Below, piece after piece: positions 15,778 through 30,545 of a stretch of DNA of 31,623 bases. The first letter of the stretch is position 1, and the number at the start of each line of letters is the position of its first letter. The stretch is taken from NCBI GenBank assembly GCA_041486695.1, contig JBGPLZ010000031.1, positions 1 to 31,623 on the forward strand, given 5' to 3'. A program made the position numbers and the translations under genes. This DNA comes from Acidobacteriota bacterium (GTDB taxonomy: Bacteria > Acidobacteriota > Polarisedimenticolia > Gp22-AA2). The notes under the pieces were generated by a model that was not told the DNA's origin, did not search any database, and was given only the letters and a program-made list of their open reading frames with translations.

Positions 15778-17661
15778 ATGTGCGGCATCGCCGGCGTCCT
15801 GCGCCCGAACGGGGAGACCGATGACCGGGCCACGGTCGAGGCGATGCTCGTCACTCTGCGTCGTCGCGGGCCGGATTGCGAGGGCATCGAGAGGGAAGGT
15901 CCCCTGACCGTCGGTCACCGGCGTCTGGCCGTGGTCGATCTGAGCGACGCCGCGCGCCAACCGATGCGCAGCCACTCGGGCCGTTTGCTGGTCACCTACA
16001 ACGGCGAGATCTACAACTTCCGGGAGCTGCGGAAGGAGCTGGGGCTGACGGAGCGCGATCTGCGCTCCAGGTCGGACACCGAGGTGCTTCTGGCCGCCTG
16101 GGAGCGCTGGGGCCCCGCCGCCCTCGACCGGATGGTCGGGCAGTGGGCCTTCGCCATTTACGATCGGGACAGCCGCCGCCTCTGGCTGGCGCGCGATCGT
16201 TTTGGGGAGAAGCCGCTCTACTATCACACCGCCCCCGGGTCGCTCAGCTTCGCCTCCAGCATCCCGGCTCTCTTGAAGGCGCCATGGGTGGGGCGGGATT
16301 TGGATCCCGAGGCCCTCGCCGAGTACCTGACCCTGCGCTACGTGATCAGCCCGCGCACGGTCGTCTCCGGCATTCTGAAGCTGCCGGCGGGTCATCTGCT
16401 GACGGTGGGGCCGGAGGGGACCGAGCTGCGCCAGTGGTACGACCCCCGCTTCGTCCCCGATGCCGAGCCGCCGACCCTGTCGTGCAGACGGGATCTCGTC
16501 GACCGGTTCGGGGCGCTTCTGCTTCAGGCGGCGGAGCGCTGCCTCGTGAGCGACCTTCCGGTCGGGCTGTTGTTGAGCGACGGCATCGACAGCAACAGCC
16601 TGCGCTCGGCCCTCCGGCTGGCCCGCCACGAGGTGCGCTGTTTTACCTACCGCGTGGGCGAGCCGGGTGGGACGCATGCGGCGGCCGCGCTCGAGGCGAA
16701 AGAGACGGCCGGCAGGACGGAGATCTGGAGCGCACCCTCCGAGCGGCTCGGGACGCTGGTGCCGGCTTTTTCGAGCTTCACCGAGCCGACGGGTGACGGC
16801 GCGGCTCTCGCCCTGTGGTATCTCATCCGCCAGGCGCGCCCGAGCGCCGGCGTCTTTCTCTCCGGGAGCGGCGGTGACGAGATCCTCGGCGGCTACCGGC
16901 TGGACCAGGATCTCCTGAGGCTCCGGGCCCTGCGCCGCTTCAGCTGGCTCCCCGAACCTCTATTGCGCAAGGTCCTTCTGCGCTATCTCGCGGGAAGCGA
17001 ATCGACCGCTGACCGGCGAACCGCGCTGCGCCGCAGCTGTCCGGAATCCGTACCGGCCCTGGCGCGCTATCTCGTCAATCGCCCCCTGCCGCTGACTTCG
17101 TTGGCGCCGCTTTTCGGCCCCGGCGCCGTCCCCGGCCGCTACCTCGGAAGCGTCGATCGACTCTATGACGAATGCGACCGGAAGGCCTCCGGGCTCGACC
17201 GGGTGCAGGAAGTGATGCTGCGCACCTTTCTCACCGAAAATATCCTGTCGCACACCGATTCGGTCGCGATGGCCTCGTCGGCCGAGCTGCGGTTGCCGTT
17301 CCTCGACCGCGACCTGGTCGATTTCGTCCTGCGGCTTCCAGCCTCGATGCGCGTGGGAGGTTTGTTCCGCCGACCGCGGACGAAAAGGATCCTGAACCTG
17401 TGGCGGGAGGAGCGCAGCCCGGGGTTCGCGTGCAGCCCGAAGAAGCGGACCTTCAATTACGGCAGCATCCGGCAGCTGCTTCCCGAGAAGGGAGGCGTGG
17501 TGCGCGATTTGATCCTCGACGCGCGCGCGCTGCGCCGGTTGCTGCCGGGGCTCGACGCCTGGGTCGGCGCACCGCCCGCCGCCTTCCGTGGCCCGGTCGA
17601 GGGAACCCTCTGGGCGCTCTTGAGTCTCGGCATCTGGTGCGAAGCGGCGGGAATCTTCTGA
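15778..17661 (+). CDS. Asparagine synthetase (glutamine-hydrolysing) family amidotransferase, AsnB-type
   Basis: The N-terminal 'MCGIAG' Ntn nucleophile and GATase-II domain are followed by the synthetase PP-loop 'LLSDGIDSNS'. The start is 2 nt after the upstream stop. Confidence 0.85.
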   Translation: MCGIAGVLRPNGETDDRATVEAMLVTLRRRGPDCEGIEREGPLTVGHRRLAVVDLSDAARQPMRSHSGRLLVTYNGEIYNFRELRKELGLTERDLRSRSDTEVLLAAWERWGPAALDRMVGQWAFAIYDRDSRRLWLARDRFGEKPLYYHTAPGSLSFASSIPALLKAPWVGRDLDPEALAEYLTLRYVISPRTVVSGILKLPAGHLLTVGPEGTELRQWYDPRFVPDAEPPTLSCRRDLVDRFGALLLQAAERCLVSDLPVGLLLSDGIDSNSLRSALRLARHEVRCFTYRVGEPGGTHAAAALEAKETAGRTEIWSAPSERLGTLVPAFSSFTEPTGDGAALALWYLIRQARPSAGVFLSGSGGDEILGGYRLDQDLLRLRALRRFSWLPEPLLRKVLLRYLAGSESTADRRTALRRSCPESVPALARYLVNRPLPLTSLAPLFGPGAVPGRYLGSVDRLYDECDRKASGLDRVQEVMLRTFLTENILSHTDSVAMASSAELRLPFLDRDLVDFVLRLPASMRVGGLFRRPRTKRILNLWREERSPGFACSPKKRTFNYGSIRQLLPEKGGVVRDLILDARALRRLLPGLDAWVGAPPAAFRGPVEGTLWALLSLGIWCEAAGIF

Positions 17662-17739
17662 AGGCCTCGCGTCCGGGCGACGCGCTCCCGGCTCCGCCCC
17701 GCGGGGGCCCGGCATCGATTCGGCTAGAATAGAAGGGCG

Positions 17740-20700
17740 ATGCAAGAGAGCCGATTTCGGATCCGCCCGCAGTGGCCCGCGGCCCTGCTTCTGGGCGCGG
17801 TCATGTCCATCGCCGGCCTCCCGGCCGGGCCGGCCGCGATCCGGACGGGCACCGCGGCCCCGGCGAACTCCACCAACCATCTGCTGGGGCAGACCAGTCC
17901 CTACCTTCTCGAGCACCTCGAGAACCCGGTTGACTGGTATCCATGGGGGGACGAGGCGCTGGCGCGCGCGCGCGACGAGGACAAGCCGATCTTCCTGTCG
18001 ATCGGTTACTCGGCCTGCCACTGGTGTCACGTCATGGCGCGGGAATCGTTCTCCGATGAGGAGATCGCCCGCCTGCTCAACCAGAGCTTTGTCGCCATCA
18101 AGGTCGATCGCGAGGAGCGGCCCGACCTGGACGCCATCTACATGGATGCGGTGGTGCTGATGACCGGCGGCGGCGGATGGCCGATGTCGGTCTTTCTGAC
18201 GCCCGATCTCGAGCCGTTCCACGGCGGGACCTATCTCCCCAGGGAGCAGTTCCGCGCCCTGCTGACCGGCATCGCCTCGACCTGGAAGGGCAACCGGGAT
18301 CAGGCGCTCGCGGTCGCCCGGCAGGTGCGCGAGAGGCTGGCGCGGCCGCCGACGCCGCCGGGTCCCTCCGGGGCCGTCCCGGCGGGGACGCTTGTCGACG
18401 GGGCGCTGGTCCAGTGGCGGGCCTCCTACGATCCGGTCCACGGAGGCTTCGGGGGCGCGCCGAAGTTCCCGTCCCCGCAGGCGCTCCAGCTGCTTCTCCG
18501 GGCGTCACGCGAGAACCGCTCTGCCCCGGCGCTCGAGATGGTGACGCGCAGCCTGGAAGCGATGGCCAACGGGGGCCTTTACGACCAGCTCGGGGGCGGG
18601 TTCCACCGCTACGCCACCGATGCGGCCTGGAGGGTGCCGCACTTCGAGAAGATGCTCTATGACAATGCCTTGCTCGCCCCGGTCTATCTCGAGGCCTGGC
18701 GGGCGACGGGACGCATCGAGTTCCGGCGGGTCGCGGAGGAGACGCTATCCTGGGTGGCGCGCGAGATGACCGACGCCCGCGGCGGGTTCTGCGCCAGCCT
18801 CGATGCCGACAGCGAGGGGGAGGAGGGCCGCTTCTACCTGTGGACGACGGCGGAGGTTCGGCGGGTCTTGGGCGATCGCGACGCCGCCTTCGCGATCGAC
18901 TACTTCGGCATGAGCGAGCGGGGCGATCTCCCCGGCGGGCGCAACGTCCTGCATGTTCGGTCGGCCCCGCCCGAGTTCGCGCCGGGGCACGGGATGAGCG
19001 ATGAGGCAGTGCGGGCGCGGGTCGTCGACCTCCGCGCCAAGCTGCTGGCGGCACGGAGCTCTCGCCCGCGTCCGCGCCGCGATGACAAGATTCTCACCGC
19101 CTGGAACGGCCTGATGATCTCGGCCTACGCCCGCGCCTACGCTCTCACCGGAGAGGTTCGCTACCGCGAAGCGGCGGCGCGCGCGGCGCGTTTCGCCCAG
19201 GACGCATTGCTCGATCGCGACGGCCGCGTCCTGGCGGTCTTCAGGCCGGGTGGGCAGGTCCCGCTGCCCGGCACCCTCGACGACTCCGCGTTTCTGGCGC
19301 GCGGCCTGCTCGACCTCTACGACGCCACGTCGACGCGCGCCTACCTCGAGGCTGCGAAGCGCATCGTGCATGACGCCGAGCGCTTCCTCGATCGGACTGC
19401 GGGAGGATACTTCTTCACCGCGGAGGATCGGCGACACTTGATCGTCAGGACCAAGAGCTTCGAGGATCAGGCGCTGCCATCGGGGAATGCCGTCCTTCTC
19501 GAATGCCAGACGCGTCTCGCTCGCGCCCTGGGTGACCCGACGCTGTTGCAGCCGGTGCGGCGCACGCTCGAGATCGCCGGTCCTGCGCTCCGCGCCGCGC
19601 CGGCCGGCTCGGCCGCGATGATCCTGGCGGCGTTGCAGCTGGATGCGCCGGAGTCGGCCGCTCCCCGGCCCGATGCGGCCGCGGCGCGCGCCCTCACGAT
19701 CTCGCTGCTCGCGACGCCTGCCCTGGCCGCGAGCCCCGCACCCGCCGCGGCTCCGCAGCCAAAGGGGACCGATGGGACCGGGGGAGGAGACCGGATCGTG
19801 CCCGGCGCCATCGTCGGCCGGGCCAATGCGCAGAAGGTCGTCGAGGCGTCCATCGCCGTCCCGGGCGGGACGGTGCGCCCCGGTCAGGCCGTCACGCTGT
19901 CGTTGCGGCTGGTGATCGCACCGGGGTGGCATATCAATTCGTCGCGTCCAACGCTCGACTACCTGATCGCGACCAGGCTCGCGTTCCCCGATCCCGCCGC
20001 AGTTCGGGTCGAAGAGATCGCCTACCCCGAAGGCTCGATCGTGCTCCTCGAGTTCGCCCAGGAGAAGCTCTCGGTCTATCAGGGGGCGACGACGATCAGG
20101 GCCACCGTCAGCCTGCCGCCGGAAGCGCCGCCGGGCCGGAGCGTGATCGCCGCCAGGCTGGTCTATCAGGCCTGCAGCGACAAGACCTGCCTCGCCCCCG
20201 AGACGATCGAGTTCCGGATCCCGGTCGACGTCGGCGGCGAGCCGGTGATGAGGACGCTGTCCCGCGTCGGTGAAAGCCCTTCGGACATCGAGGCTGCGGG
20301 GGCGCCGGCCGGAGGCAACGAAGGCGGCGCGCCGCCGACCGGCCGTGGCGGAGGGCTCGAGTCGCTCCTGGGACAGGGGCAGGGGGGCGAGGGGATCCAG
20401 GCGCTCCTCGATCGCCGCGGCCTCCTCGTGCTCCTCAGTCTGGTGTTCCTGGCCGGGCTGGCCCTGAACCTGACCCCCTGCGTCTACCCGATGATGCCGA
20501 TCACGATTGGCTTCTTCGCCAATCAGTCGCTCGGCAGCTGGGGGCGTCGGATCGGCCTGCCGGCCCTCTACGTCCTTGGGATGGCGGTGACCTACTCGAT
20601 TCTCGGCCTGGTGGCGGGACTGACCGGGACGCTGTTCGGCTCAACCCTGCAAAGTCCCCTCATCACCGGGGGGCTGGTGCTGATCTTCGTCATCATGGCG

Positions 20701-21594
20701 CTGTCGATGTTCGGATGGTTCGAGATCCAGATGCCGCGCTTCCTGACCCGCCTCAGCGGCGGCCGGCAGGGGACCCTCGGCGCCTTTCTGATGGGCCTGA
20801 CGATGGGGATCGCTGCGGCGCCCTGCATCGGCCCGTTCATCGTGCCGCTGCTGGCCTTCGTCGGGGTCTCGGGGAAGCCGATCCTGGGCTTCTGGCTGTT
20901 TTTCGTGATGGCGATCGGGATGGGGGTGCCGAACCTCTTTCTGGGTGCCTTCTCCGGCGCCATGGCGGCGCTGCCGCGCTCGGGCATCTGGTTGATCTAC
21001 GCCAAGAAGGTAATGGGCGTGGCCCTCCTGGCCGTGGCGCTCTATTTCCTGCAGCCGTTCCTGAAGGATCGCTGGCTCGGCGTCATCGCGCTCGGCTTCG
21101 CCGCCCTCTCGGGGCTCTATCTCGGTTTCCTGGATCGCACCCGGGTTGCCTCCGGTTGGTTCCGGCCGGTGAAAATCGGCATCGGGCTTCTGGTCCTCTC
21201 CGCCGGGGCGTGGGTGGCCGGGCCGCTTCTCCGCGCCCGGCCGGAGGTCGACTGGCGTCCTTACTCGCCAGAGATCCTCGAAGCGGCCAGGGCGGCGGGG
21301 CGGCCGGTGATCATCGACTTCGCCGCGGCCTGGTGCCTGCCGTGCAGAGAGCTCGAGCGCTTCACCTTCACCGATGCCCGCGTGCTCGTGGAGGCGGAGC
21401 GCTTCGCGCTTCTCAAGGCCGATCTCACTTCGTTCGAAGCGGCGCCGGTGCGCGAGATCCGGGCGCGCTTCGAGGTCGTGGGAGTACCGACCATCATCTT
21501 CATCGACGGCAAGGGAATCGAGAAAAGAGATCTCAGGGTGTACGGTTTCGAGGCGGCCGCCCGGTTCGTCGAGCGCATGCGGCAGGTCCGGTAG
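17740..21594 (+). CDS. Fusion protein: signal peptide + DUF255/YyaL thioredoxin-domain protein (SPATA20-like, with (alpha/alpha)6-barrel region) + complete thiol:disulfide interchange protein DsbD (alpha, TM beta and thioredoxin-like gamma domains)
   Basis: The DUF255 signature '[47 protein letters not shown]' is present. The DsbD-alpha-like block is '[22 protein letters not shown]...[18 protein letters not shown]'. The DsbD-beta Cys sites are '[18 protein letters not shown]' and '[17 protein letters not shown]'. The gamma domain has '[15 protein letters not shown]'. Total length is 1284 aa, roughly YyaL (~680) plus DsbD (~600). Confidence 0.8.
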
Positions 21595-21603
21595 AACGGC
21601 GGT

Positions 21604-21640
21604 GAACGCGACCCATGCGAATACTCGGACCGGCTCCTAG
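21604..21640 (+). repeat. Copy of a ~37-nt repeat family (gaacgcgacccATGcgaatactcggaccggctcCTAG) overlapping the thrC start codon
   Basis: 34/37 identical to the reverse complement of 23815..23851, and ~33/35 to 24058..24092. Confidence 0.6.
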
Positions 21641-22808
21641 CTGCCTCGACCGGCTCGAATGTTCGCTCTGCACAGCCGTTCGGCCGTTCGGCCCCGAGCC
21701 GGCGGGTCTGTGCACGTGCGGCGCGCCTCTCCTGGCGCGCTACCGGCTGGACGAGGTCCGGAAGGCGCTGCACCGGGAGGATCTCCGCGGGCGGATCGCC
21801 AGCCTATGGCGCTACGCCGAGATCCTCCCGGGGGTGACCCCGGTCACTCTCGGGGAAGGGTTCACGCCGCTCCTGCCGGCGAGCCGATTGGGCCGCGAGC
21901 TCGGCCTCCACGGACTCCTGATCAAGGACGAGTCGGTCAACCCGACCGGCTCGTTCAAGGCGCGCGGAATGTCGGTGGCCGTGTCGGTGGCGGCGGCCCA
22001 GGGGGTGAGGGTCGCGGCCACGCCTTCCGCCGGGAACGCCGGCTCGGCCCTGGCGGCCTATGGCGCGCGCGCCGGGCTCCAAGTGCAGCTCTTCCTGCCG
22101 GAGACGACCCCGCGGCCGTTCGTCCTCGAGGCGCGGCGGCTGGGCGCGCGGGTGCGGCTCGTGCCCGGCTCGATCGCCGACGCGGGGCGGGTGATGCGGG
22201 AGAGCCTGGGTCAGGGCGGGTGGTTCGACTTCGCGACCCTGCGTGAGCCGTTCCGGATCGAGGGAAAGAAGACGATGGGGTACGAGCTGGCCGAGCAATG
22301 CGGCTTCGAGCTTCCCGAGGTCGTCATCTATCCCACCGGCGGGGGAACGGGACTCATCGGCATGTGGAAGGCGTTCGACGAGATGGAAGCGCTGGGGTGG
22401 GTCGGCGGTCGCCGGCCACGGATGATCGTGGTCCAGGCGGAGGGTTGCGCGCCGATCGTGAGGGCCTTCGAGCGCGGCGCCGATCGCGCCCTGCCCTGGC
22501 CGAACCCCGAGACGGCCGCCTCGGGGCTCAGGGTTCCCGGAAGCCTGGGGGACTTCCTGATCCTGAAGGCGGTCCGGGAGAGCGGCGGAACCGCGCTCGC
22601 GGTCGCCGACCGTGAGATGATGGAGGGGTCCGCGCGGCTGGCGCGCCATGAGGGGATCGATGCCTGCCCGGAGGGGGGAGCGACGCTCGCGGCGCTGCTG
22701 CACCTGAAGCAGGAGGGGAAGGTGGGGGCCGACGAGAGGATCGTCCTCTTTAACACCGGCACCGGCCTGAAGTACTTTGATGCAGGACCGGGCATCGAGC
22801 CCGGCTAA
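21615..22808 (+). CDS. thrC: Threonine synthase (PLP-dependent, type with N-terminal Cys4 zinc-ribbon)
   Basis: 'LECSLC...LCTCGAPL' is followed by 'LIKDESVNPTGSFKARGMSVAVSVA' (PLP-lysine motif) and 'IYPTGGGTGLIG'. The start codon lies inside a repeat copy (see findings). Confidence 0.85.
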   Translation: MRILGPAPSCLDRLECSLCTAVRPFGPEPAGLCTCGAPLLARYRLDEVRKALHREDLRGRIASLWRYAEILPGVTPVTLGEGFTPLLPASRLGRELGLHGLLIKDESVNPTGSFKARGMSVAVSVAAAQGVRVAATPSAGNAGSALAAYGARAGLQVQLFLPETTPRPFVLEARRLGARVRLVPGSIADAGRVMRESLGQGGWFDFATLREPFRIEGKKTMGYELAEQCGFELPEVVIYPTGGGTGLIGMWKAFDEMEALGWVGGRRPRMIVVQAEGCAPIVRAFERGADRALPWPNPETAASGLRVPGSLGDFLILKAVRESGGTALAVADREMMEGSARLARHEGIDACPEGGATLAALLHLKQEGKVGADERIVLFNTGTGLKYFDAGPGIEPG

Positions 22809-22820
22809 AAGGAGGGGCTG

Positions 22821-23225
22821 ATGCGTCACCGAAGATTGACGGTCGGAGGAATCGCTGGCGCCGTTCTCGCCGGAGCGCTCCTGGCGGCCTCGCCGGCACC
22901 GAAGCCGACTCCCGCGCCCTCTCCGACCCCGGCGCCTGCTCCGACTCCGGCGCCCTCTCCGACTCCGGCGTCCTCCCCCTCGCCCTCTTCCGGACCGGGA
23001 GCGGCGCCCGAGCCCGCGGCGTCCCCCGCACCGGCACCACCGCTGCCGCGCATCATACGGACCGTCTGCACCGACCACATCTGCGGCAACTGCGATGGCA
23101 AGTGCCAAAAGAACGGCGGCCACGTGGCGGTCGACAAGAAAGGCCATTGCGCCTGCACTCCGACCGAGGGGAGCGCCCTCGACCAGGCCACGCGCCAGGC
23201 CTACGAGAAGAACCAGCCAAAGTGA
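22821..23225 (+). CDS. Small secreted protein: signal peptide, Pro/Thr/Ala/Ser-rich repeat linker, C-terminal Cys6/His3 mini-domain
   Basis: A strong SD (AAGGAGG) lies 7 nt upstream. The N-terminus 'MRHRRLTVGGIAGAVLAGALLAAS' is signal-like. '(PTPAPS)n' is encoded by an 18-bp tandem repeat. The C-terminus 'CTDHICGNCDGKCQKNGGHVAVDKKGHCAC' is Cys/His-rich. It ends with a TGA that overlaps the GTG of folE. Confidence 0.6.
   Translation: MRHRRLTVGGIAGAVLAGALLAASPAPKPTPAPSPTPAPAPTPAPSPTPASSPSPSSGPGAAPEPAASPAPAPPLPRIIRTVCTDHICGNCDGKCQKNGGHVAVDKKGHCACTPTEGSALDQATRQAYEKNQPK
22905..22976 (+). repeat. 4 x 18-bp tandem repeat (ccgactccggcgccctct-like) encoding PTPAPS units inside the small secreted protein gene
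   Basis: Four consecutive 18-nt units with 1 to 3 mismatches each are visible directly in the sequence. Confidence 0.7.
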
Positions 23226-23818
23226 GCCGACGACGTCCCGGCCCCGATCGGGCTCGCCTGCTGAGGGCCGCACGGCTGTTCGTCGCCGGCACGGGAGAGC
23301 GCGAGCTGCGTCGTGAGCTGACCAGGACTCCCGCGCGGGTGGCGGATGCCTGGAGCGCCGAGATCCTCTCCGGCTATCGCACCGACCCTTCCCGGGTTCT
23401 CGGGCGCCCCTTCCGGGCGCGGCAGCGCGGCATGGTCGTCGTGCGTGCCATCCCGTTCGTCTCGGTCTGCGTCCATCATCTGCTGCCATTCCATGGCACG
23501 GCCCACGCCGGCTATCTGCCGGATGGCCGCCTGGTCGGCCTGTCGAAGATCACCCGGGTCGTCGATGCGCTGTCGCGCCGGCTGCAGCTCCAGGAGCGTC
23601 TGACGCATCAGGTGGTCGAAGCGCTCGCCGCGGCGCTCGTTCCGCTCGGCGCCGCCTGCCGCATGGAGGCGGAGCACCTCTGCATGACCGTGCGCGGGGC
23701 GCGCAAGCACGGCACGCGCGTCGTCACCACCGCCTACACCGGTGCCTTCATGCAGAGCCCGGCGCTGCGCGCCGAGTTCCTGAGACTGTGCGCCGGCGTG
23801 CCGGCGCGCCGGCGCTAG
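23222..23818 (+). CDS. folE: GTP cyclohydrolase I (FolE, type 1)
   Basis: 'VCVHHLLPFHGTAHAGYLPDGRLVGLSKITRVVD...RLQLQERLT...EAEHLCMTVRG' matches the FolE catalytic core. The GTG start at 23222 overlaps the upstream stop (GTGA). The track ORF from 23102 overlaps the upstream gene and is probably too long. Confidence 0.85.
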   Translation: MSRRRPGPDRARLLRAARLFVAGTGERELRRELTRTPARVADAWSAEILSGYRTDPSRVLGRPFRARQRGMVVVRAIPFVSVCVHHLLPFHGTAHAGYLPDGRLVGLSKITRVVDALSRRLQLQERLTHQVVEALAAALVPLGAACRMEAEHLCMTVRGARKHGTRVVTTAYTGAFMQSPALRAEFLRLCAGVPARRR

Positions 23819-24092
23819 GAGCCTGTCCGAGTAATAGCATGGGTCGCGTTCGCGGCGCCGCGGGGTCGGCCGCGAGGCGCCGCGACGACCGCGATGTGAG
23901 TCATCGCGGAGGAGCGGCAACGATGCGGACGGTCCCGCGCCGCCACGAACCCGCAGGGCACGTGGGGATTGCGGCCCCATGCTTCGTTGATCGTCGTCAA
24001 CGATGCGACCACATCGTATCCTCCTCGCGCCTCGCCTGGGACTCGCAAGCCCCACGTGCGCGGCCCATGCTATTACTCGGACAGGCTCCTAG
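23815..24092. repeat. 278-bp element bounded by ~35-bp near-perfect terminal inverted repeats (candidate MITE, invertible segment or structured RNA locus) between convergent folE and accC
   Basis: The left arm (23815..23849, ctaggagcctgtccgagtaatagcatgggtcgcgt) and the reverse complement of the right arm (24058..24092) are identical at 33/35 positions. The CTAG at each end contains the TAG stops of folE (23816-18) and of accC on the minus strand (24089-91). The internal 208 bp has several short perfect hairpins, for example ccgcgatg-tgagt-catcgcgg. Confidence 0.55.
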
Positions 24093-24111
24093 GAGCCGGT
24101 CCGAATATTCG
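24089..24111. repeat. Partial inverted copy of the same repeat (ctaggagccggtccgaatattcg), abutting the right IR to form a long palindrome centred on CCTAGG; it encodes the last residues of AccC
   Basis: Its reverse complement 'cgaatattcggaccggctcctag' matches the thrC-start copy at 22/23 positions. Confidence 0.55.
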
Positions 24112-25642
24112 ACCGACGGCTGTGCATCAGGGCGCGCCGCCCGGCGAGGAGCCAGGGGCTGGCGACCGCACCAGGCTCGGAGGCCGCACTGGGCATGGAG
24201 ACCGACGCCCGCGTGCTCTCCTCGCTCGCCACGATCGCCGCGGCGATCACCGCCTCGTCCAGATCGGGGCCCGGCTCGAGCAGCGGCGCGATCAGCCGCG
24301 GCAACTCCCGATCGACGTACCCGACGTCGATCGCCCCATCCCGGAAGCCGGGATCGTTCATCACCTCGCGGTGGAACGGGATCGTCGTTTCGATTCCGGC
24401 CACCACGAACTCGTCGAGCGCGCGACGCATCCTGGCGATCGCCTGGCCGCGCGTCCGACCCCAGGCGACCAGCTTGGCGATCAGCGCGTCGTAGTACAGC
24501 GAGATCTCGTCCCCCGGGAGGAGGGCGGTGTCGACCCTGATCCCCGGCCCCGCCGGCAGGCGCAGCTCGGCGATCCGGCCGGGGCAGGGCCGGAAGTCGT
24601 GAGCCGGATCCTCGGCCAGGATGCGGCACTCGATGGCCCAGCCGCGCCGGCGGATGTTCTCCTGCCGGATCGACAGCCGCTTGCCGCGGGCGATGTCGAT
24701 CTGCTCGCGCACCAGGTCGTAGCCGGTCGTCATCTCGGTGACCGGATGCTCAACCTGGAGCCGCGCGTTGACCTCCATGAAATAGGGCTGGCCCGTGTCG
24801 CCCAGAAGGAACTCGACCGTGCCGGCGCTGAAGTATCCGGAGGCGCGCACCGCCTCGAGCGCCAGCGCTCCCATGCGCTCGCGCGTCGCCGGCGTGACCG
24901 CGGTCGAAGGGGACTCCTCGATCAATTTCTGGTGGCGGCGCTGCAGCGAACATTCCCGCTCCCCCAGATGGACCGCCTGGCCGTGGCGGTCCGCCAGCAC
25001 CTGGATCTCGACATGCCGCACCTTCTCGAGATACTTCTCGGCGTAGATGCCGTCGTCGCCGAAGGAGGCCTTGGCTTCGGACCGAGCGGCGCGCAGCGCC
25101 GCCGCGAGCTCCCCCGGGGCGTGGACGACGCGCATCCCCTTGCCGCCGCCACCGGCGGCCGCCTTGAGCAGGATCGGATAGCCAGCCTGGTCCGCGAAAG
25201 CCAGGATCGCGGCCGTGCCTGCGGGCCCGGTGGCCCGCTCGGTCAGCCCGGGGATCACGGGCACGCCGCGCGCCGCCATCCGGCGCCGCGCCTCAACCTT
25301 GTCTCCCATCGCCCGCATGGCCGCCGGCGGCGGGCCGATGAAGATCAGGCCCTGCGCTTCGCAGGCTTCGGCGAACGCCGGGTTCTCGGAGAGGAAGCCG
25401 TAACCCGGATGGACCGCGTCGGCCCTCATGGCACGGGCCGCCTTCAGGATCGCCTCGATGTCGAGGTAGGACGAAGCCGGCGGCGGCGGACCGATCGGCC
25501 GGGCGTCGTCGGCGAGGCGGATCGGCAGCGAGTCACGGTCGGCCTCGGAAAAAACCATCAGCGGCGTGAGGCCGGCGTCGCGGCAGGCGCGCAGGACCCG
25601 CAGGGCGATCTCACCGCGATTGGCGATCAGGATCCGCCGCAT
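24089..25642 (-). CDS. accC: Biotin carboxylase subunit of acetyl/propionyl-CoA carboxylase, with a ~60-aa Ala/Ser-rich C-terminal extension and no biotinyl (BCCP) domain
   Basis: 'MRRILIANRGEIALRVLRACR...', an ATP-grasp domain and the 'biotin carboxylase C' domain are present. The start is preceded by GAGGAG. The C-terminal tail 'AVIAAAIVASEESTRASVSMPSAASEPGAVASP...SNIRTGS' runs into the repeat. Confidence 0.85.
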   Translation of the reverse strand: MRRILIANRGEIALRVLRACRDAGLTPLMVFSEADRDSLPIRLADDARPIGPPPPASSYLDIEAILKAARAMRADAVHPGYGFLSENPAFAEACEAQGLIFIGPPPAAMRAMGDKVEARRRMAARGVPVIPGLTERATGPAGTAAILAFADQAGYPILLKAAAGGGGKGMRVVHAPGELAAALRAARSEAKASFGDDGIYAEKYLEKVRHVEIQVLADRHGQAVHLGERECSLQRRHQKLIEESPSTAVTPATRERMGALALEAVRASGYFSAGTVEFLLGDTGQPYFMEVNARLQVEHPVTEMTTGYDLVREQIDIARGKRLSIRQENIRRRGWAIECRILAEDPAHDFRPCPGRIAELRLPAGPGIRVDTALLPGDEISLYYDALIAKLVAWGRTRGQAIARMRRALDEFVVAGIETTIPFHREVMNDPGFRDGAIDVGYVDRELPRLIAPLLEPGPDLDEAVIAAAIVASEESTRASVSMPSAASEPGAVASPWLLAGRRALMHSRRSNIRTGS

Positions 25643-25700
25643 GGCATCTCCTCGGGCTGGCCGGCTGCGGGGGGCGGCCGCCGAACAGCCGCACCGGCTC

Positions 25701-27248
25701 CTAGAGCGGGATGTTCCCGTGCTTCTTGGGAGGATTGGTGTCCTTCTTGGTCCTCAGAAGCCGCAGGGCCTTGATCACCTTGCCGCGCGTCTGGCGCGGC
25801 TCGATCACTTCGTCGACGTAGCCGCGCTCGGCGGCGACGTACGGGTTGGCGAACTTCTCCCGGAACTCCTCGACCTTCTGGCGGCGGAGCGCCTCCCCGT
25901 CCCCGGCCGCCGCCAGCTCGCGTCGGTAAAGGACGCTCACGGCCCCCTCCGGACCCATGACGGCGATCTCGGCGGTCGGCCAGGCGAAGTTGAAGTCGGT
26001 GCGGATGTGCTTCGAGCCCATGACGCAATAGGCGCCGCCGTACGACTTCCGGGTGATGACCGTGATCTTCGGCACGGTCGCCTCGGCGAAGGCGTACAGG
26101 AGCTTGGCGCCATGCTTGATGATGCCGCGGTGCTCCTGGTCGGTGCCGGGCAGGAACCCCGGCACGTCCTCGAAGATCACCAGCGGCACGTTGAAGGCGT
26201 CGCAGAAGCGGACGAAGCGCGCTCCCTTGAGCGAGGCGTCGATGTCGAGCGTGCCGGCCAGCACGGCCGGCTGGTTGGCGACGATGCCGACGACACCGCC
26301 ATCCATGCGGCCGAGGCCGACCACCAGGTTCTTGGCGTAGTGCTCGTGGACCTCGAGGAAGGCCCCTTCGTCGAGCACGCTGCGCACGACATCCTTGATG
26401 TCGTACGGCTTGTTCGGTTCCTCCGGGATCAGCCGATCGAGCCGCTCGTCCTCACGGTCCGGGTCGTCGACGGGATCGCGGCGGGGCGGGTCTTCCATGT
26501 TGTTCGAGGGCAGATAGGACAGAAGCTCGCGGATGAGACCGAGTGCGGCGCGGTCGTCGGCCGCCGCGAAGTGGGCCACGCCACTCACCGTGGCGTGGGT
26601 CATGGCGCCGCCCAGCTCTTCCTTGCTCACCTCTTCATGGGTCACCGACTTGAGGACGTCGGGGCCCGTGATGAACATGTAGGAGGTCCCCTGCACCATG
26701 ATGTTGAAGTCGGTGATCGCCGGCGAGTAGACCGCTCCGCCGGCGCAGGGGCCCATGATCGCCGAGATCTGCGGAATGACGCCCGAGGCGAGGGTGTTGC
26801 GCAGGAAGATGTCGGCGTAGCCGCCGAGGGAAACGACGCCCTCCTGGATGCGCGCCCCTCCGGAGTCGTTGAGGCCGATGACCGGCGCGCCGACCTTCAT
26901 CGCCAGATCCATGATCTTGCAGATCTTGGCGGCGTGGGTCTCGCTCAAGGAACCGCCGAAGACGGTGAAGTCCTGGGCGAAGATGAAGACCGGCCGGTCG
27001 TCGATCGTGCCGTGTCCAGTGATCACCCCGTCGCCCGGGATCCGCTGCGACTCCATCCCGAAGTCGTTCGAACGGTGGACCACAAAGCGGTCGAGCTCCT
27101 GGAAGGACCCGGGGTCGAGCAGGAGCTCGACCCGCTCGCGGGCCGGCAGCTTTCCCTCGGCCTTCTGGCGCTGCAGACGCTCCGCTCCGCCGCCGGCCTC
27201 GGCCTCCCGGTTCCGGCGCCGCAACTCCTCGAGCTGATCGTTGGCCAA
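25701..27248 (-). CDS. Acyl-CoA carboxylase carboxyltransferase (beta) subunit, propionyl-CoA carboxylase beta / methylmalonyl-CoA carboxyltransferase family
   Basis: '...[11 protein letters not shown]...' together with the two crotonase-fold carboxyltransferase halves ('[19 protein letters not shown]', '[10 protein letters not shown]') identify it. Only a TTG start is available in frame after the upstream stop, so the start is uncertain. Confidence 0.8.
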
Positions 27249-27293
27249 GCTAGAAACCTGTCCGGGTATCGGGACGGGTCACGGTGGGGCGCC
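27249..27293. repeat. Degenerate copy of the repeat family filling the tal-pccB intergenic spacer
   Basis: 'gctagaaacctgtccgggtatcgggacgggtcacggtggggcgcc' aligns with 'gctaggagcctgtccgagtaatagcatgggtcgcgttcgcggcgcc' (23814..23859) at about 32/45 positions. Confidence 0.4.
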
Positions 27294-27956
27294 TCAGGCT
27301 TTCCGCGAGTTCTGCGGCAACTTCTCCCAATCGGCCAGAAACTTCTTCAGGCCGAGGTCGGTGAGAGGATGCTTCAGCAGGCTCTCGAGGACTGAAAACG
27401 GCATCGTGGCGATGTCGGCGCCGATGGTGGCGGCGTCGATGACGTGGAGCGGGTTGCGGATGCTGGCGGCCAGGATCTCGCACTTGAAGTCGTAGTTGTC
27501 GAAGATGGACCGGATCTGGCGCACCAGGTCCATGCCGACGTGGCCGATGTCGTCGAGCCGGCCGAGAAACGGGCTGACGTAGGAGGCGCCCGCCTTCGCC
27601 GCCAGCAGCGCCTGCGGGGCGGAGAAGATGAGGGTGGTGTTGATCCGGATCCCCTCCGATGACAGGGTCCTGATGGCGCGCAGCCCCTCGCGGATGAAGG
27701 GGATCTTGACGACCACGTTCTTGGCGACCTTCGCCAGATCGCGCCCCTCCCGGATCATCTCGTCGGTCGTCACGCTGACCACCTCGGCGCTCACCGGGCC
27801 GGGCGCGACGACGGCGCAGATCTCCTTGAGCGCCTCGATGAAGTCCCGGCCCTCCTTCGAGACCAGGCTCGGGTTGGTGGTGACGCCGTCGAGGATCCCC
27901 CAGGAGTGGGCCTCCCGAATCTCCTTGATGTTGGCCGTATCGAGATAGATTTTCAT
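27294..27956 (-). CDS. Transaldolase / fructose-6-phosphate aldolase family protein (short ~220-aa type)
   Basis: '[13 protein letters not shown]...GVTTNPSL...VVKIP...' carries the conserved Schiff-base Lys region. Length and motifs match FSA/TalC-type enzymes. Confidence 0.85.
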
Positions 27957-27971
27957 CGCCGCCTCCGGCTC

Positions 27972-30545
27972 CTAGTGATCCTTGCCGTTGCCGCCGCCGG
28001 GAGCCGGCTCCAGGGTCCCCCCGGACGGTCCGGCTCCCTCGCCCGGCTCGCTCTCCTCGCCCTGGATGCCGCCCGACGGCGACCCTCCCGGCCCCGCGAC
28101 TTCGTCGCCTTCGGCCACCGGCGCCACGGCCACGACCTTGTCGTCGTCGTCGAGGTGGATCAGGCGCACGCCCTGCGTCGGCCGCCCGAGAAGGGAGATG
28201 TCCTTGACGTTCGTCCGGATGATCTTGCCGAAAGCGGTGATCACCATCACCTGGTCGTCGGTCTCCACCTCCATCGCCTGGACCACCGGGCCGTTCTTGT
28301 CGGTGACCTTGAAGTTGATGATGCCGCTGCCGCCCCGGCCCTGCAGACGATACTCGGGGATCTCGGTCCTTTTGGCATACCCTTTCTCGCTGACCGTCAG
28401 GATGGTGCTGTCCTTGGCGGCCTTCAGGACGTCCATCTCGACGATGACGTCTCCTTCGGCCAGGCGCATGCCGATCACGCCGCGGGCGCCGCGACCCATC
28501 GCCCGGACGTCGTCCTCGGCGAAGCGGATCGACTGCCCCTGGGCGGTCGCCATGAAGATCTCCTGCTTGCCGTCGGTCAGCTTGACCGACAGCAGCTCGT
28601 CCCCTTCATCCACCCCCGTGCCGATAATGCCACCGGCACGCGGGTTGCCATAAGCCGACAGCGCGGTCTTCTTGATGATCCCCTTGCGAGTGCAGAAGAC
28701 CACGTGCTGATCGTCCCTGAACTCCTTGGTCGCGACCAGGGCGGCGACCTTCTCGCCGGTCTGGAGCTCGACAAAGTTGACGATGTTCTTCCCCTTGCCG
28801 GCGGCGCCGATCTGCGGGATCTCGTGGACCTTCAGCCAGTGCACCCGGCCCCGGGTGGTGAAGATCAGGATCGACGCGTGGGTGGAGGCGACGAACAGGT
28901 GCTCGACGAAATCCTCCTCCCGCGTGGTCATGCCGATCTTTCCCTTGCCTCCCCGCCGCTGGCTGCGGTAGAGCGACAGCGGATTGCGCTTCATGTAGCC
29001 GGCGTGGGAGACGGTGATGACCATCTCCTCCTCGGCGATCATGTCCTCGACCGAGATCTCCCCTGCCTGCGGGACGATCTCGGTGCGCCGCGCATCGGGG
29101 TGGTTCTTGCGGATCTCCTTGAGCTCTTCGACGATCATGCTGAACACCAGCCGCTCGTTGGCCAGGATCTCCTTGAGCCGGGCGATCTGCTTCAGCGTCT
29201 CGGTGTACTCGTCGACGATCTTCTGGCGCTCCAGGCCGGTCAGGCGCTGCAGCCGCATGTCGAGGATCGCCTGCGCCTGGATGTCGGAGAGCTTGAAGCG
29301 CAGGCGCATCGCCTGGCGCGCGTCGTCAGGCGTCTTGGCCGATTTGATCAGGGCGATCATCTCGTCGAGATTGTCGAGGGCGATCTTGAGCCCCTCGAGG
29401 ATGTGGGCCCGCTCCTCGGCCCGCGCCAGCTCGAACGCGGTGCGCCTCGTCATCACCTCGCGCCGATGATCGATGAAGTGCCCGATCATCTGCTTGAGGT
29501 TGAGCACCTGGGGGCGGTTGTTGACGATCGCCAGGAAGATCGCCCCGAAGCTGTCCTGCATCTGGGTGTGCTTGTAGAGGTTGTTCAGGATCACCTTGGG
29601 CACCGCGTCGCGGCGCAGATCGAGAACCACGCGGATGCCATCGCGGTCGGACTCGTCGCGGATGTCGGTGATGCCGTCGATCTTCTTTTGATTGACCAGG
29701 CCGGCGATCTGCTCTATGAGCCGCGTCTTGTTGACCTGGTAAGGAATTTCGGTGATGACGATCTTGTCCTTGCCCCGCTTGCCGCCTTCCTCGATGGTCG
29801 CCCGGGCGCGCATGGTGATGATGCCGCGGCCGGTCCGGTAGGCCTGCAGGAACCCCTCGCGCCCGAGGATGTACCCTGACGTCGGGAAGTCGGGCCCCTT
29901 GACGTGCTGCAACAGGGCGTCCATGGTGATCTCGGGGTCCTCGATCTGCGCGATGACGGCGTTCACCACCTCGGTCATGTTGTGCGGCGGGATGTTCGTC
30001 GCCATGCCGACGGCGATGCCGGAGGAGCCGTTGACCAGGAGGTTCGGGAAGCGGCTCGGCAGCACCAGCGGCTCGAGCTGCTGGCCATCGTAGTTCGGGC
30101 CGTAATCAACCGTGTCCTTCTCGATGTCGGCCAGCATCTCGTGCGCCAGCCGGGCCATCCGGATTTCGGTGTAGCGCATGGCGGCCGCAGCGTCCCCGTC
30201 GATCGACCCGAAGTTCCCCTGCCCGTCCACCAGCGGGTAGCGCATGGAAAAATCCTGCGCCATGCGCACGATCGTGTCGTAGATGGCGGTGTCACCGTGC
30301 GGGTGGTACTTCCCCATGACGTCTCCGACGATGCGCGCGGCCTTCTTGTACGGCTTGTCATGGTCGTTCCCCGCCTCGTGCATGGCAAACAGGACGCGGC
30401 GGTGGACCGGCTTGAAGCCGTCGCGGATGTCGGGCAGGGCCCTGCCGATGATCACGCTCATGGCGTAATCGAGGTAGGACCGCCGCATCTCGTCTTCGAT
30501 GTCGACTCGGGAGATCTCGCCTGGTGTCTGGGTTGTCTCGCTCAT
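27972..30545 (-). CDS. gyrA: DNA gyrase subunit A
   Basis: '[31 protein letters not shown]' carries the active-site Tyr region, followed by the GyrA beta-pinwheel C-terminal domain and a Gly/Glu/Pro-rich acidic tail. Confidence 0.9.

What the first reader, a model, noticed from the sequence alone, without database searches (positions are those of the whole stretch)
23815..24092. 278-bp element with ~35-bp terminal inverted repeats wedged between convergent folE and accC; its CTAG ends supply both genes' stop codons
The arms (23815..23849 and 24058..24092) are 33/35 identical as inverted repeats. Similarity extends with mismatches another ~10 bp inward. The interior (~208 bp) is non-coding in any convincing frame and contains multiple perfect short hairpins. 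Both flanking genes terminate exactly at the terminal CTAG (TAG on each strand). This geometry is typical of a MITE or small non-autonomous IS-derived element inserted at a CTAG/TA target. It also fits an invertible DNA switch or a convergent-transcription terminator with structured RNA. Because the repeat arms recur elsewhere in the window, it is not a one-off palindrome.
Basis: seen in the sequence. Interest (0 to 1): 0.6.

Follow-up and report, generated by a model that had tools for sequence, protein, structure and literature searches.

The report
Miniature transposon sitting on stop codons
The 278-bp element is a non-coding miniature transposon (MITE) that carries the end sequences of IS1182-family insertion sequences and has landed on the rare tetranucleotide CTAG that formed folE's stop codon; this is a known kind of selfish DNA, and the family has a conserved Y-shaped fold and often uses TAG stop codons as landing sites.

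Summary
A 278-bp element (23815-24092) has 29-bp perfect terminal inverted repeats (33/35, then 66 nt at 79%). folE and accC both stop in its terminal CTAGs.

It is a MITE. Its terminal ~18-29 nt match the ends of 1.4-1.6-kb elements that encode IS1182-family transposases in many phyla, including the named ISMno8. More than 100 copies with a homologous ~277-bp interior occur at unrelated sites in Acidobacteriota genomes and soil and sediment metagenomes. The interior resembles none of the 15 full-length ISs sampled.

Flanks fit a TA duplication within a preferred C-TA-G target. CTAG occurs only 7 times in the window (27-92 expected). Where a gene abuts an element end, 62 of 73 stop exactly in the junction TAG. 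The stop-codon geometry is therefore a family trait that follows from target choice.

The element folds into a terminal stem plus two ~100-nt hairpins. These are kept by compensatory changes (41 of 80 pairs) with no strand asymmetry.

Two truncated ends of the same family now supply thrC's start codon and accC's last six codons. Gene order relative to the nearest relatives breaks exactly at the element. This means either a repeat-mediated rearrangement or an assembly join.

Verdict: a new member of a known kind.

The parts
23815..24092 (.). Whole feature as reported: the MITE plus flanking target bases (C-TA ... TA-G)
   Evidence: Homologous full-length copies were aligned.
23816..23817 (.). 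Left copy of the inferred TA target-site duplication. Together with G23818 it forms folE's TAG stop.
   Evidence: Flank statistics. folE ends at the position homologous to the stop in relative L123.
23818..24089 (.). Element proper (GGAGCC...GGCTCC, 272 bp)
   Evidence: The same termini bound 55 paired elements in genome loci and ISMno8.
23818..23847 (+). Left terminal inverted repeat, the presumed transposase-binding end. It is the 5' half of the terminal stem.
   Evidence: Similarity to full-length IS ends is limited to the first 16-29 nt.
23848..23950 (.). Internal hairpin 1 (~103 nt)
   Evidence: MFE fold. Helices 3, 5 and 6 show compensatory changes across 47 copies.
23951..23957 (.). Small central hairpin at the three-way junction. 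In the 47-copy consensus it is 3 bp, CCC-loop-GGG, within the conserved AACCCGAAGGG motif.
   Evidence: helix 7, 98.6% paired, invariant.
23958..24059 (.). Internal hairpin 2 (~102 nt). It contains the near-invariant unpaired TCCTCCTCGC block.
   Evidence: (helices 8, 9 and 11).
24060..24089 (-). Right terminal inverted repeat
24090..24091 (.). Right copy of the inferred TA duplication. Together with C24089 it is the complement of accC's TAG stop.
24089..24111 (+). Truncated left end (23 nt) of a second element of the same family, abutting the MITE. On the minus strand it encodes the last residues and stop of accC (NIRTGS*).
   Evidence: D2 and I6; I7. Relatives end ...AGRRALMESRFAPRARRSH*.
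21595..21641 (+). Truncated right end of a third element of the family. It supplies thrC's start codon (ATG 21615) and its first ~8 codons.
   Evidence: (I2).

Best explanation
The element is a non-autonomous miniature inverted-repeat transposable element (MITE). It has no gene of its own. It carries the ~20-30-bp terminal inverted repeats that IS1182-family DDE transposases of the ISMno8 type recognise. It is therefore most likely moved in trans by such a transposase encoded elsewhere in the genome (inferred).

Insertion goes into a TA dinucleotide, preferably in the palindrome C-TA-G. The TA is duplicated. The element's terminal G and C rebuild CTAG at both junctions (inferred from flank statistics).

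CTAG is very rare in these GC-rich genomes and is largely confined to TAG stop codons preceded by C, so the family often lands exactly on stop codons. Here it landed on folE's native stop. The rebuilt TAG keeps folE intact, and the CTAG at the other junction serves as the stop of the gene on the opposite strand.

The interior is unrelated to the parent ISs sampled. It is a conserved Y-shaped palindromic module of a terminal stem plus two ~100-nt hairpins. Its pairing is maintained equally on both strands. This points to a DNA-level cause (hairpin or cruciform formation, or templated correction of quasi-palindromes), or to a strand-symmetric transcript effect. It does not point to a one-strand RNA gene.
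For: Shown:
- Perfect 29-bp TIRs.
- The terminal motif occurs in at least 118 loci from many phyla.
- In those loci, 55 inverted pairs were found: 15 of 1376-1627 bp and about 40 of 55-425 bp.
- The long ones encode IS1182-family transposases. NCBIfam NF033551 scores 355 and 378 bits against a cut-off of 270. 25 loci are tblastn-positive.
- The curated ISMno8 has the ends CTA|GGAGCCTGTCCGAGTAAG...GGGCTCC|TAG.
- 47 full-length homologues have 82% mean column identity, and four are 91-94% identical to the window copy.
- In the metagenome set, which was not selected for CTAG, right flanks are TAG in 66, TAA in 7 and TAC in 4 of 103. Left flanks are CTA in 38, TTA in 8, ATA in 2 and GTA in 1 of 58. 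Combinations such as TTA...TAG and ATA...TAA fit a 2-bp TA duplication but not a 4-bp one.
- CTAG occurs 7 times in the window, against 92 expected from base composition and 27 from a Markov model.
- 62 of 73 genes that abut an element end stop in the junction TAG.
- 25 of 58 complete copies have at least one such gene, and 3 have one at both ends.
- The orthologous folE in L123 ends at the homologous codon and has no element.
- About 60 kb of orthologous regions in relatives carry no arm.
- Structure: 96.7% of cells are paired, against 34-41% when partners are slid. 41 of 80 pairs have double changes. 0 of 500 shuffles reached the observed values.
- In the interior hairpins there are 40 G.U cells and 34 A.C cells.

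From the literature: IS1182-family MITEs are already described (PMC3852290). The IS1182-family ISPse1 makes a 4-bp direct repeat (PMC3281130). Some IS1182 members target palindromes or hairpins (PMC4923244).
Against: - No transposase of this type is present in the 31.6-kb window. The window appears to be an entire contig: an identical accC protein is on record only on a 31,623-bp contig. So a partner in the same genome is unproven.
- No true empty site in a near-identical strain was found. The nearest relative at the folE locus is only ~82% identical at protein level and has a TGA stop.
- Published IS1182 elements are reported with 4-bp repeats or none. The TA reading therefore rests only on flank statistics.
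- Similarity to the autonomous ISs sampled is restricted to the terminal 16-29 nt. The origin of the interior is unknown.
Confidence: 0.9

Rival explanations
1. The element is primarily a functional structured RNA or a bidirectional transcription terminator or insulator between convergent genes. Its repeats reflect RNA structure rather than transposition.
For: The fold is very stable on both strands. The internal hairpins show strong covariation. The element sits at the 3' ends of two genes. Near-invariant unpaired blocks such as TCCTCCTCGC are present.
Against: - There is no Rfam family match.
- There is no stem-plus-U-tract terminator and no promoter consensus.
- G.U and A.C mismatches are equally frequent, 40 against 34, so no single strand is favoured.
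- The element shows no orientation bias relative to abutting genes: 15 genes abut the left end and 13 the right end.
- 33 of 58 complete copies have no clear gene abutting either end.
- The termini are those of transposase-bearing ISs.
- An effect on transcripts could still exist as a by-product.
Confidence: 0.07
2. The element is an invertible DNA switch, that is, a segment flipped by a site-specific recombinase acting on the inverted repeats.
For: Only the geometry supports this: inverted repeats flank a short segment.
Against: - No recombinase gene was seen among the neighbouring genes annotated: DsbD-like, thrC, folE, accC, carboxyltransferase, fsa and gyrA.
- No promoter lies inside.
- The element is nearly symmetric, so inversion would change little.
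- The same element occurs at more than 100 unrelated loci, which is transposon behaviour and not that of a locus-specific switch.
Confidence: 0.01
3. The element is a REP/BIME-type repetitive extragenic palindrome, mobilised by a RAYT (Y1) transposase or maintained by the host, rather than an IS-derived MITE.
For: It is repetitive, palindromic and extragenic, it lies at gene ends, and it is highly structured.
Against: REPs are ~20-40-nt units without long TIRs (established knowledge). Here the termini are shared with DDE-transposase ISs of the IS1182 family. The copies are discrete ~277-bp units with TA flanks.
Confidence: 0.02
4. The local arrangement (folE, element, accC tail-to-tail) is not biological. 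It is a chimeric assembly join through a repeat present at two loci of the genome or community.
For: - Both sides lose synteny exactly at the element.
- Relatives have folE followed by a SPOR gene.
- Relatives have accC followed by BCCP and HU.
- BCCP, HU and glycerate kinase are absent from the window.
- The sequence appears to be one whole metagenomic contig, and the element is a multi-copy repeat.
- GC3 is 0.86-0.88 on the left and 0.90-0.93 on the right.
Against: - Tetranucleotide profiles of the two sides are similar (r = 0.955-0.97).
- Both sides have relatives at comparable distance (74-92% amino-acid identity).
- A real recombination between two MITE copies would give the same picture.
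- This rival concerns the context, not the nature of the element.
Confidence: 0.25

Closest known systems
ISMno8 and related IS1182-family insertion sequences (for example ISMno38, and the unnamed copies in L029, L045, L117 and L041)
   Same: The terminal sequence is nearly identical: GGAGCCTGTCCGAGTAA(T/G). ISMno8 matches 17/18 and 16/18 terminal nt. The CTA...TAG flanks are the same.
   Different: These ISs are 1.4-1.6 kb and encode a 440-460-aa DDE transposase. The window element is 272 bp and non-coding, and it shares only the terminal 16-29 nt with the ISs compared.
IS1182-family MITEs described in Methanosarcina acetivorans (ISMac2-related, 160-169 bp; PMC3852290)
   Same: They are non-autonomous elements carrying IS1182-family ends, with ~25-bp inverted repeats and short direct repeats.
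   Different: They come from a different domain and have different sequence and length. No conserved Y-shaped interior or stop-codon preference is reported for them in the passages I read.
MITEPsy1 of Pseudomonas syringae (IS5-family ISPsy2 derivative; PMC3189936)
   Same: It inserts at CTAG or YTAA, the same palindromic YTAR-type target.
   Different: It is 100 nt long, has different TIRs and an IS5-family partner, and is reported to make a 4-nt duplication.
Correia elements (CREE) of Neisseria (from my own knowledge)
   Same: They are short TIR-bounded MITEs with a TA duplication. They are abundant at gene ends, fold into hairpins as RNA, and can influence neighbouring transcripts.
   Different: They are ~100-155 bp with unrelated sequence, are restricted to Neisseria, and have no clear autonomous partner.
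IS1272/TnSha1 (IS1182 family, staphylococci; PMC4923244)
   Same: They belong to the same IS family and prefer palindromic or hairpin targets, often terminators at gene ends.
   Different: They make blunt insertions with target deletion and no duplication, and show no primary-sequence target. The element here uses a sequence-defined CTAG/TA target.

Membership tests
MITE (miniature inverted-repeat transposable element) | Small (tens to a few hundred bp) and without coding capacity | tested here: met
   The element is 272-278 bp. There are no Pfam hits for its ORFs. Across 47 copies there is no codon periodicity, and indels are mostly 1-2 nt.
MITE (miniature inverted-repeat transposable element) | Terminal inverted repeats | tested here: met
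   The arms are 29 nt perfect, 33/35, and 66 nt at 79%.
MITE (miniature inverted-repeat transposable element) | Multiple copies at unrelated genomic sites | tested here: met
   At least 120 metagenome loci and several Acidobacteriota genomes carry homologous ~277-bp copies with different flanks. One genome (CBDCLS01) has at least 5 loci. The window holds one full copy plus two truncated copies.
MITE (miniature inverted-repeat transposable element) | Target-site duplication | tested here: met
   TA is present at both flanks in most copies while the outer bases vary. In the window both junctions read CTAG, so a 2-bp and a 4-bp duplication cannot be told apart at this copy.
MITE (miniature inverted-repeat transposable element) | Ends shared with an autonomous, transposase-encoding element | tested here: met
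   15 full-length elements with the same ends were found. They encode IS1182-family transposases. ISMno8 has the same ends.
MITE (miniature inverted-repeat transposable element) | Autonomous partner present in the same genome | not testable with these tools
   There is none in the 31.6-kb window. The rest of the genome is not available. A partner exists in a MAG labelled Candidatus Polarisedimenticolia (L117). Some of the named homologues of the window's thrC and accC carry that same label.
MITE (miniature inverted-repeat transposable element) | Demonstrated mobility (filled versus empty site in close relatives) | tested here: inconclusive
   The orthologous folE end in L123 lacks the element, but L123 is only ~82% identical at protein level and its stop is TGA. 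No junction-spanning empty site was found among 246 loci. For the truncated arm at thrC, three relatives lack it.
IS1182 family (for the autonomous partners) | Transposase matches the curated family model above its cut-off | tested here: met
   NF033551 scores 355 and 378 bits against a cut-off of 270. The Pfam domains are DUF772, DDE_Tnp_1 and DDE_Tnp_1_6.
Invertible DNA switch | Adjacent site-specific recombinase and a functional asymmetry (a promoter or coding end) inside the segment | tested here: not met
   The neighbouring genes annotated are DsbD-like, thrC, folE, accC, carboxyltransferase, fsa and gyrA. No promoter-like site is present.
Intrinsic (Rho-independent) terminator | GC-rich stem-loop followed by a U tract | tested here: not met
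   0 terminator-like sites were found in 23300-24600 on either strand.
Known RNA family (Rfam) | Match to a curated covariance model | tested here: not met
   No hit overlaps the element at E <= 1.
REP/BIME elements | Short (~20-40 nt) imperfect palindromes associated with RAYT transposases | tested here: not met
   The unit is ~277 bp with 30-nt TIRs identical to IS1182-family IS ends. RAYT association was not tested.

The most novel reading that the evidence does not exclude
The Y-shaped interior is not filler but a selected module. On this reading the family is a structured MITE found in Acidobacteriota, with elements of the same architecture in Planctomycetota and one Steroidobacteraceae MAG. 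It homes to TAG stop codons and carries a conserved three-way DNA or RNA junction. The junction either promotes its own mobilisation (for example by cruciform-assisted end synapsis) or makes insertions harmless or useful by insulating the 3' ends of genes in both directions. The near-invariant unpaired motifs would be protein- or RNA-binding sites.
Probability: 0.2. Interest if true: 0.55.

Novelty: new member of a known kind. Interest (0 to 1): 0.35.

Why it matters
For annotation, the element explains three oddities of this contig:
- two convergent genes share a palindromic 278-bp spacer that provides their stops;
- thrC has an N-terminus unlike its relatives;
- accC has a replaced C-terminal tail.

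It also flags the folE/accC junction as a rearrangement or misassembly point.

More generally, it documents a widespread IS1182-type MITE family in poorly studied soil phyla. Its CTAG/TA target makes TAG stop codons preferred, largely harmless landing pads. The regenerated CTAG allows further insertions at the same spot. The strongly covarying but strand-symmetric fold is a useful caution. Covariation in palindromic mobile DNA does not by itself indicate an RNA gene.

Tried and rejected
- An Rfam scan of 21000-26500 at E <= 1 found nothing on the element.
- A promoter and terminator consensus scan found nothing.
- An exact-protein look-up of the window's accC returned no contig.
- I looked for a simple internal-deletion origin by aligning the element's halves to both ends of 15 full-length ISs. 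Similarity stops after 16-29 nt.
- I looked for empty sites by joining the flanks of 59 copies and searching all loci. No hit spanned a junction.
- I looked for other abutting element pairs (GGCTCCTAGGAGCC) in 246 loci. There were none, so the window's MITE-plus-truncated-arm junction is unusual.
- I tested for an inter-genome chimera using GC, GC3, tetranucleotides and per-gene identity to relatives. The result was inconclusive.
- I considered conserved small ORFs or outward-reading starts inside the element. The ATGs in the arm and in hairpin 1 are not conserved across the family.
- The first stop-codon test, based on open-frame length, was confounded because the +2 frame is open in GC-rich genes. 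I replaced it with a GC3-based frame call.
Full report
**1. The observation**

The sequence CTAGGAGCCTGTCCGAGTAATAGCATGGG occurs at 23815-23843 on the plus strand and at 24064-24092 on the minus strand without a mismatch. None of 100 dinucleotide-preserving shuffles gave a match. Read directly, the arms are 33/35 identical over 35 nt. The gapless inverted repeat continues to 66 nt at 79%.

The ORF 23102..23818 is GTP cyclohydrolase I FolE and ends in TAG at 23816-23818. The ORF 24089..25642 on the minus strand is a biotin carboxylase (accC-type), and its stop is the complement of 24089-24091. Arm-like sequence recurs at 21599-21641 (43 nt, 88%), at 24089-24111 (abutting the right end), and weakly at 25682-25704.

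The 278 nt fold with -190 kcal/mol on either strand (z about -12.7) and z = -12.6 with DNA parameters. The fold has four parts:
- a terminal stem, 23815-23847 paired with 24060-24092;
- hairpin 1, 23848-23950;
- a 7-nt junction hairpin, 23951-23957;
- hairpin 2, 23958-24059.

**2. What it is**

I scanned one genome per species for CTAGGAGCCNGTCCGANTANT. The loci come from Acidobacteriota, Planctomycetota, Nitrospirota, Alpha- and Gammaproteobacteria, Thermodesulfobacteriota, Chloroflexota, Chlamydiota, Gemmatimonadota and others.

A looser scan of those loci found 182 arms and 55 inverted pairs. Fifteen pairs are 1376-1627 bp apart and about forty are 55-425 bp apart, falling into discrete length classes.

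The long elements carry a single ORF of ~440-460 aa. Two were tested. They match the NCBIfam IS1182-family transposase model at 355 and 378 bits (cut-off 270) and have the Pfam domains DUF772, DDE_Tnp_1 and DDE_Tnp_1_6. By tblastn, 25 of the 118 loci carry this transposase at 44-84% identity. The window carries none.

In the plasmid collection the closest annotated relatives are 'IS1182-like element ISMno8/ISMno38 family transposase' of Methylobacterium nodulans. The ISMno8 copy on pMNOD02 is bounded by ...cagCTA|GGAGCCTGTCCGAGTAAG and GTTACTCGGACGGGCTCC|TAGtca. These are the window element's ends.

The window element is therefore a short, non-coding element with the ends of a known transposase-encoding IS group, which is the definition of a MITE. 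IS1182-family MITEs have been reported before, in Methanosarcina (PMC3852290).

**3. The family**

The interior is not unique to this contig. Among the genome loci, full-length homologues were found in L064 (77%), L005, L090 and L042, with partial ones in L080, L079, L011 and L052. All are labelled Acidobacteriota or member orders of that phylum.

A metagenome scan used a pattern that fixes only CAAGCCCC-N20-TACTCGGAC. It hit its limit at 120 loci, and 58 of them held complete elements, mostly 276-283 bp.

Forty-seven full copies align with 82% mean column identity. Four are 91-94% identical to the window copy.

The interior shows no similarity to either end of the 15 full-length ISs beyond the terminal 16-29 nt. 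It is therefore not a simple internal-deletion derivative of any IS sampled.

It is also non-coding. There are no Pfam hits. Variability by codon phase is flat (0.166, 0.140 and 0.175). Gap runs are mainly 1-2 nt.

Elements of 277-289 bp in Planctomycetota (L036, L061, L067, L037; L091 less clearly) and a 233-bp element in a Steroidobacteraceae MAG (L096) fold into a similar stem-plus-two-hairpins shape. Some of the Planctomycetota copies share short motifs with the window family: GGGTTGCG in L036, L061, L067 and L037; CGAGGAGCCGC in L036, L067 and L037; and GCTTTGTTG in those same four. L040 (185 bp) lacks hairpin 1. L031 (317 bp) has an extra hairpin nested in hairpin 1.

**4. Target and duplication**

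The genome scan forced CTAG at one end, so only the mate ends are informative there. These are mostly cTA/TAg, with variants gTA...TAg, tTA...TAg and cTA...TAa.

The metagenome set is unbiased for the flanks:
- After ...CTCC, the right flank is TAG in 66, TAA in 7, TAC in 4 and TGG in 12 of 103 ends.
- The left flank is CTA in 38, TTA in 8, ATA in 2 and GTA in 1 of 58.
- Among copies with TA on both sides, the combinations are CTA/TAG 20, TTA/TAG 4, TTA/TAA 3, ATA/TAA 2, CTA/TAC 2, GTA/TAG 1 and CTA/TAA 1.

The outer base varies independently of the element-proximal base. This fits a 2-bp TA duplication in a preferred C-TA-G (more loosely Y-TA-R) target. It does not fit a 4-bp CTAG duplication.

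The literature reports 4-bp repeats for an IS1182-family IS (PMC3281130) and CTAG/YTAA targets for an IS5-type MITE (PMC3189936). I therefore hold the 2-bp reading as likely, not proven. Both models predict the same empty site here: ...CGCCGGCG-CTAG-GAGCCGG...

**5. Why the stop codons coincide**

CTAG occurs 7 times in 31.6 kb. Base composition predicts 92 and a Markov model predicts 27. Four of the seven are stop codons of real genes (folE, accC, the carboxyltransferase and gyrA). One is the end of a truncated arm.

I tested all element ends that have a flanking TAG, taking both scans and the window together (n = 276). A clearly coding frame abuts 73 of them, judged by GC3 periodicity plus at least 100 open codons. 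In 62 of those 73 the coding frame is the one that terminates in the junction TAG. The other two frames account for 6 and 5.

Among 58 complete metagenome copies, 25 have such a gene at one or both ends and 3 have one at both ends, as in the window. There is no orientation preference: 15 genes abut the left end and 13 the right.

In the closest relative of the left flank (L123), folE ends at the homologous codon (...R K R * against ...R R R *) and is followed by unrelated sequence with no element.

The inference is that the element inserted into the TA of folE's own C-TAG stop. The element's terminal G restored the TAG.

**6. The fold**

RNAalifold on five copies gives the Y structure with 32 of 103 pairs showing compensatory double changes. 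On 47 copies, 41 of 80 pairs do.

With the consensus structure counted explicitly:
- 96.7% of cells are paired, against 88.0% in shuffles and 34-41% when partners are slid by 1-3 columns.
- 295 cells carry double changes, against 83 in shuffles and 25-52 when slid.
- The covariation score is 0.253, against 0.096 in shuffles and 0.034-0.048 when slid.
- 0 of 500 shuffles reach any observed value.

The internal hairpins (helices 3, 5, 6, 8, 9 and 11) contribute most of this signal. The pairing is therefore maintained beyond what shared TIRs require.

In the interior hairpins, G.U cells (40) and A.C cells (34) are equally common, and there is no orientation bias relative to neighbouring genes. 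Selection on an RNA from one strand would tolerate G.U but not A.C. The symmetry argues for one of three things:
- a DNA-level constraint (hairpin or cruciform);
- templated correction of quasi-palindromes during replication, a known mutational mechanism (from my own knowledge);
- a transcript effect that works in both directions.

I cannot separate these. There is no Rfam match and no terminator or promoter consensus.

**7. Remnants and context**

Two truncated ends of the same family sit at gene boundaries.

At 21595-21641 the window has about 36 extra nucleotides relative to three relatives. In the relatives the DsbD-like gene's TAA is followed by CG-ATG-GGC-GGC-TTT-CTC-GAT. In the window its TAG is followed by AACGG...CCC-ATG-CGA-ATA-CTC-GGA-CCG-GCT-CCT-AGC-TGC-CTC-GAC. 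thrC's native start is gone. The only in-frame start upstream of the conserved LDRLECSLC motif is the ATG inside the element's right end.

At 24089-24111 a 23-nt left end abuts the MITE. Read on the minus strand, it encodes accC's final NIRTGS* in place of the relatives' FAPRARRSH* or FPRAPRG*.

Gene order also breaks at the element.
- The left side (asnB, dsbD-like, thrC, a hypothetical gene, folE) is colinear with L123 at 80-86% protein identity. There folE is followed by a co-directional SPOR-domain gene.
- The right side (gyrA, fsa, carboxyltransferase, accC) is colinear with L119 and L122 at 72-92% protein identity. There accC is followed by a biotin-carrier gene and HU.
- Neither of those genes, nor the next gene, is anywhere in the window.

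An identical accC protein is on record only on a 31,623-bp contig, so the window appears to be a complete metagenomic contig. The tail-to-tail junction is therefore either a real recombination between two MITE copies or an assembler's join through a repeat. Composition tests did not decide between them: GC3 is 0.86-0.88 on the left and 0.90-0.93 on the right, and tetranucleotide correlation is 0.955-0.97.

**8. Comparison and verdict**

It works like other bacterial MITEs: a passive passenger of a DDE transposase. It passes every testable membership criterion (size, TIRs, copy number, flanking duplication, shared ends with an autonomous IS). A partner in the same genome and a strict empty site could not be tested.

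The invertible-switch, REP and terminator readings each fail a defining feature.

The kind is known, namely IS1182- and IS5-type MITEs with CTAG/YTAR targets. To my knowledge, three things are not described:
- this particular family of ~277-bp elements in Acidobacteriota, with similarly folded elements in Planctomycetota and one Steroidobacteraceae MAG;
- the quantitative link to TAG stop codons;
- the strongly covarying, strand-symmetric Y fold.

I could only check this against the papers searched.

I rate it a new member of a known kind, of moderate-to-low interest, with a modest chance that the conserved fold has a function of its own.

Noticed in passing
window 23815-24111, with the flanks 15778-23818 and 24089-30545: Gene order relative to the nearest relatives breaks exactly at the MITE. 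Relatives have folE followed by a SPOR gene (L123) and accC followed by BCCP and HU (L119, L122). BCCP, HU and glycerate kinase are absent from the window. This is either a repeat-mediated rearrangement or a chimeric assembly join.
   Followed up: partly
window 21595-21641: A truncated right end of the same MITE family replaced thrC's native start region. thrC now begins at an ATG inside the element end (MRILGPAPSC..., against MGGF... in three relatives).
   Followed up: yes
window 24089-24111: A 23-nt truncated left end of the family abuts the MITE and encodes accC's last residues and stop (NIRTGS*). The relatives' C-terminal residues are different.
   Followed up: yes
window 25643-25704: The carboxyltransferase-accC spacer is 58 nt here, against 6 nt or an overlap in relatives. 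On the minus strand it starts with arm-like CTAGGAGCCGGT right at the carboxyltransferase stop. It may be a decayed element remnant.
   Followed up: partly
window 27964-27975: gyrA's stop is also a CTAG, followed on the minus strand by GAGCCGGA. This could be a short footprint of an element end, or simply a stop codon overlapping the Shine-Dalgarno (AGGAG) of the downstream fsa gene.
   Followed up: no
window 1-31623: CTAG is strongly depleted: 7 occurrences against 92 expected from base composition and 27 from a Markov model. The orthologous regions in relatives show 0-0.26 occurrences per kb.
   Followed up: yes
L128, L131, L151, L154, L157, L162, L170, L174, L214, L232 (element ends): In a sub-group of the family, positions 5-6 of the terminus are changed from CC to TG at the left end in ten copies (GGAGTG...), and the right end carries the matching change (...CACTCC) in nine of them. 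L174 has the change only at the left end. This suggests co-evolution with a variant transposase, or palindrome homogenisation.
   Followed up: no
L040 5803-5987 and L031 7483-7799: The family has modular variants. One is a 185-bp copy lacking hairpin 1. The other is a 317-bp copy with an extra ~42-nt hairpin nested in hairpin 1.
   Followed up: partly
alignment A5, columns ~207-216 and 97-103 (window ~24016-24025 and ~23910-23916): The near-invariant block TCCTCCTCGC in hairpin 2 is predicted unpaired. It is complementary to the conserved CGAGGAG in hairpin 1. This could be a long-range or alternative pairing, or a binding site. Both blocks are invariant, so covariation cannot test it.
   Followed up: no
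window 22821-23225: A small ORF between thrC and folE has a signal-like N-terminus, a long Pro/Ala/Ser-rich repeat (18-nt tandem units at 22893-22982) and a Cys-rich C-terminus. It is conserved in relative L123 (83% over 78 aa) but has no family assignment. The longest folE ORF (start 23102) overlaps it, so folE probably starts further downstream.
   Followed up: no
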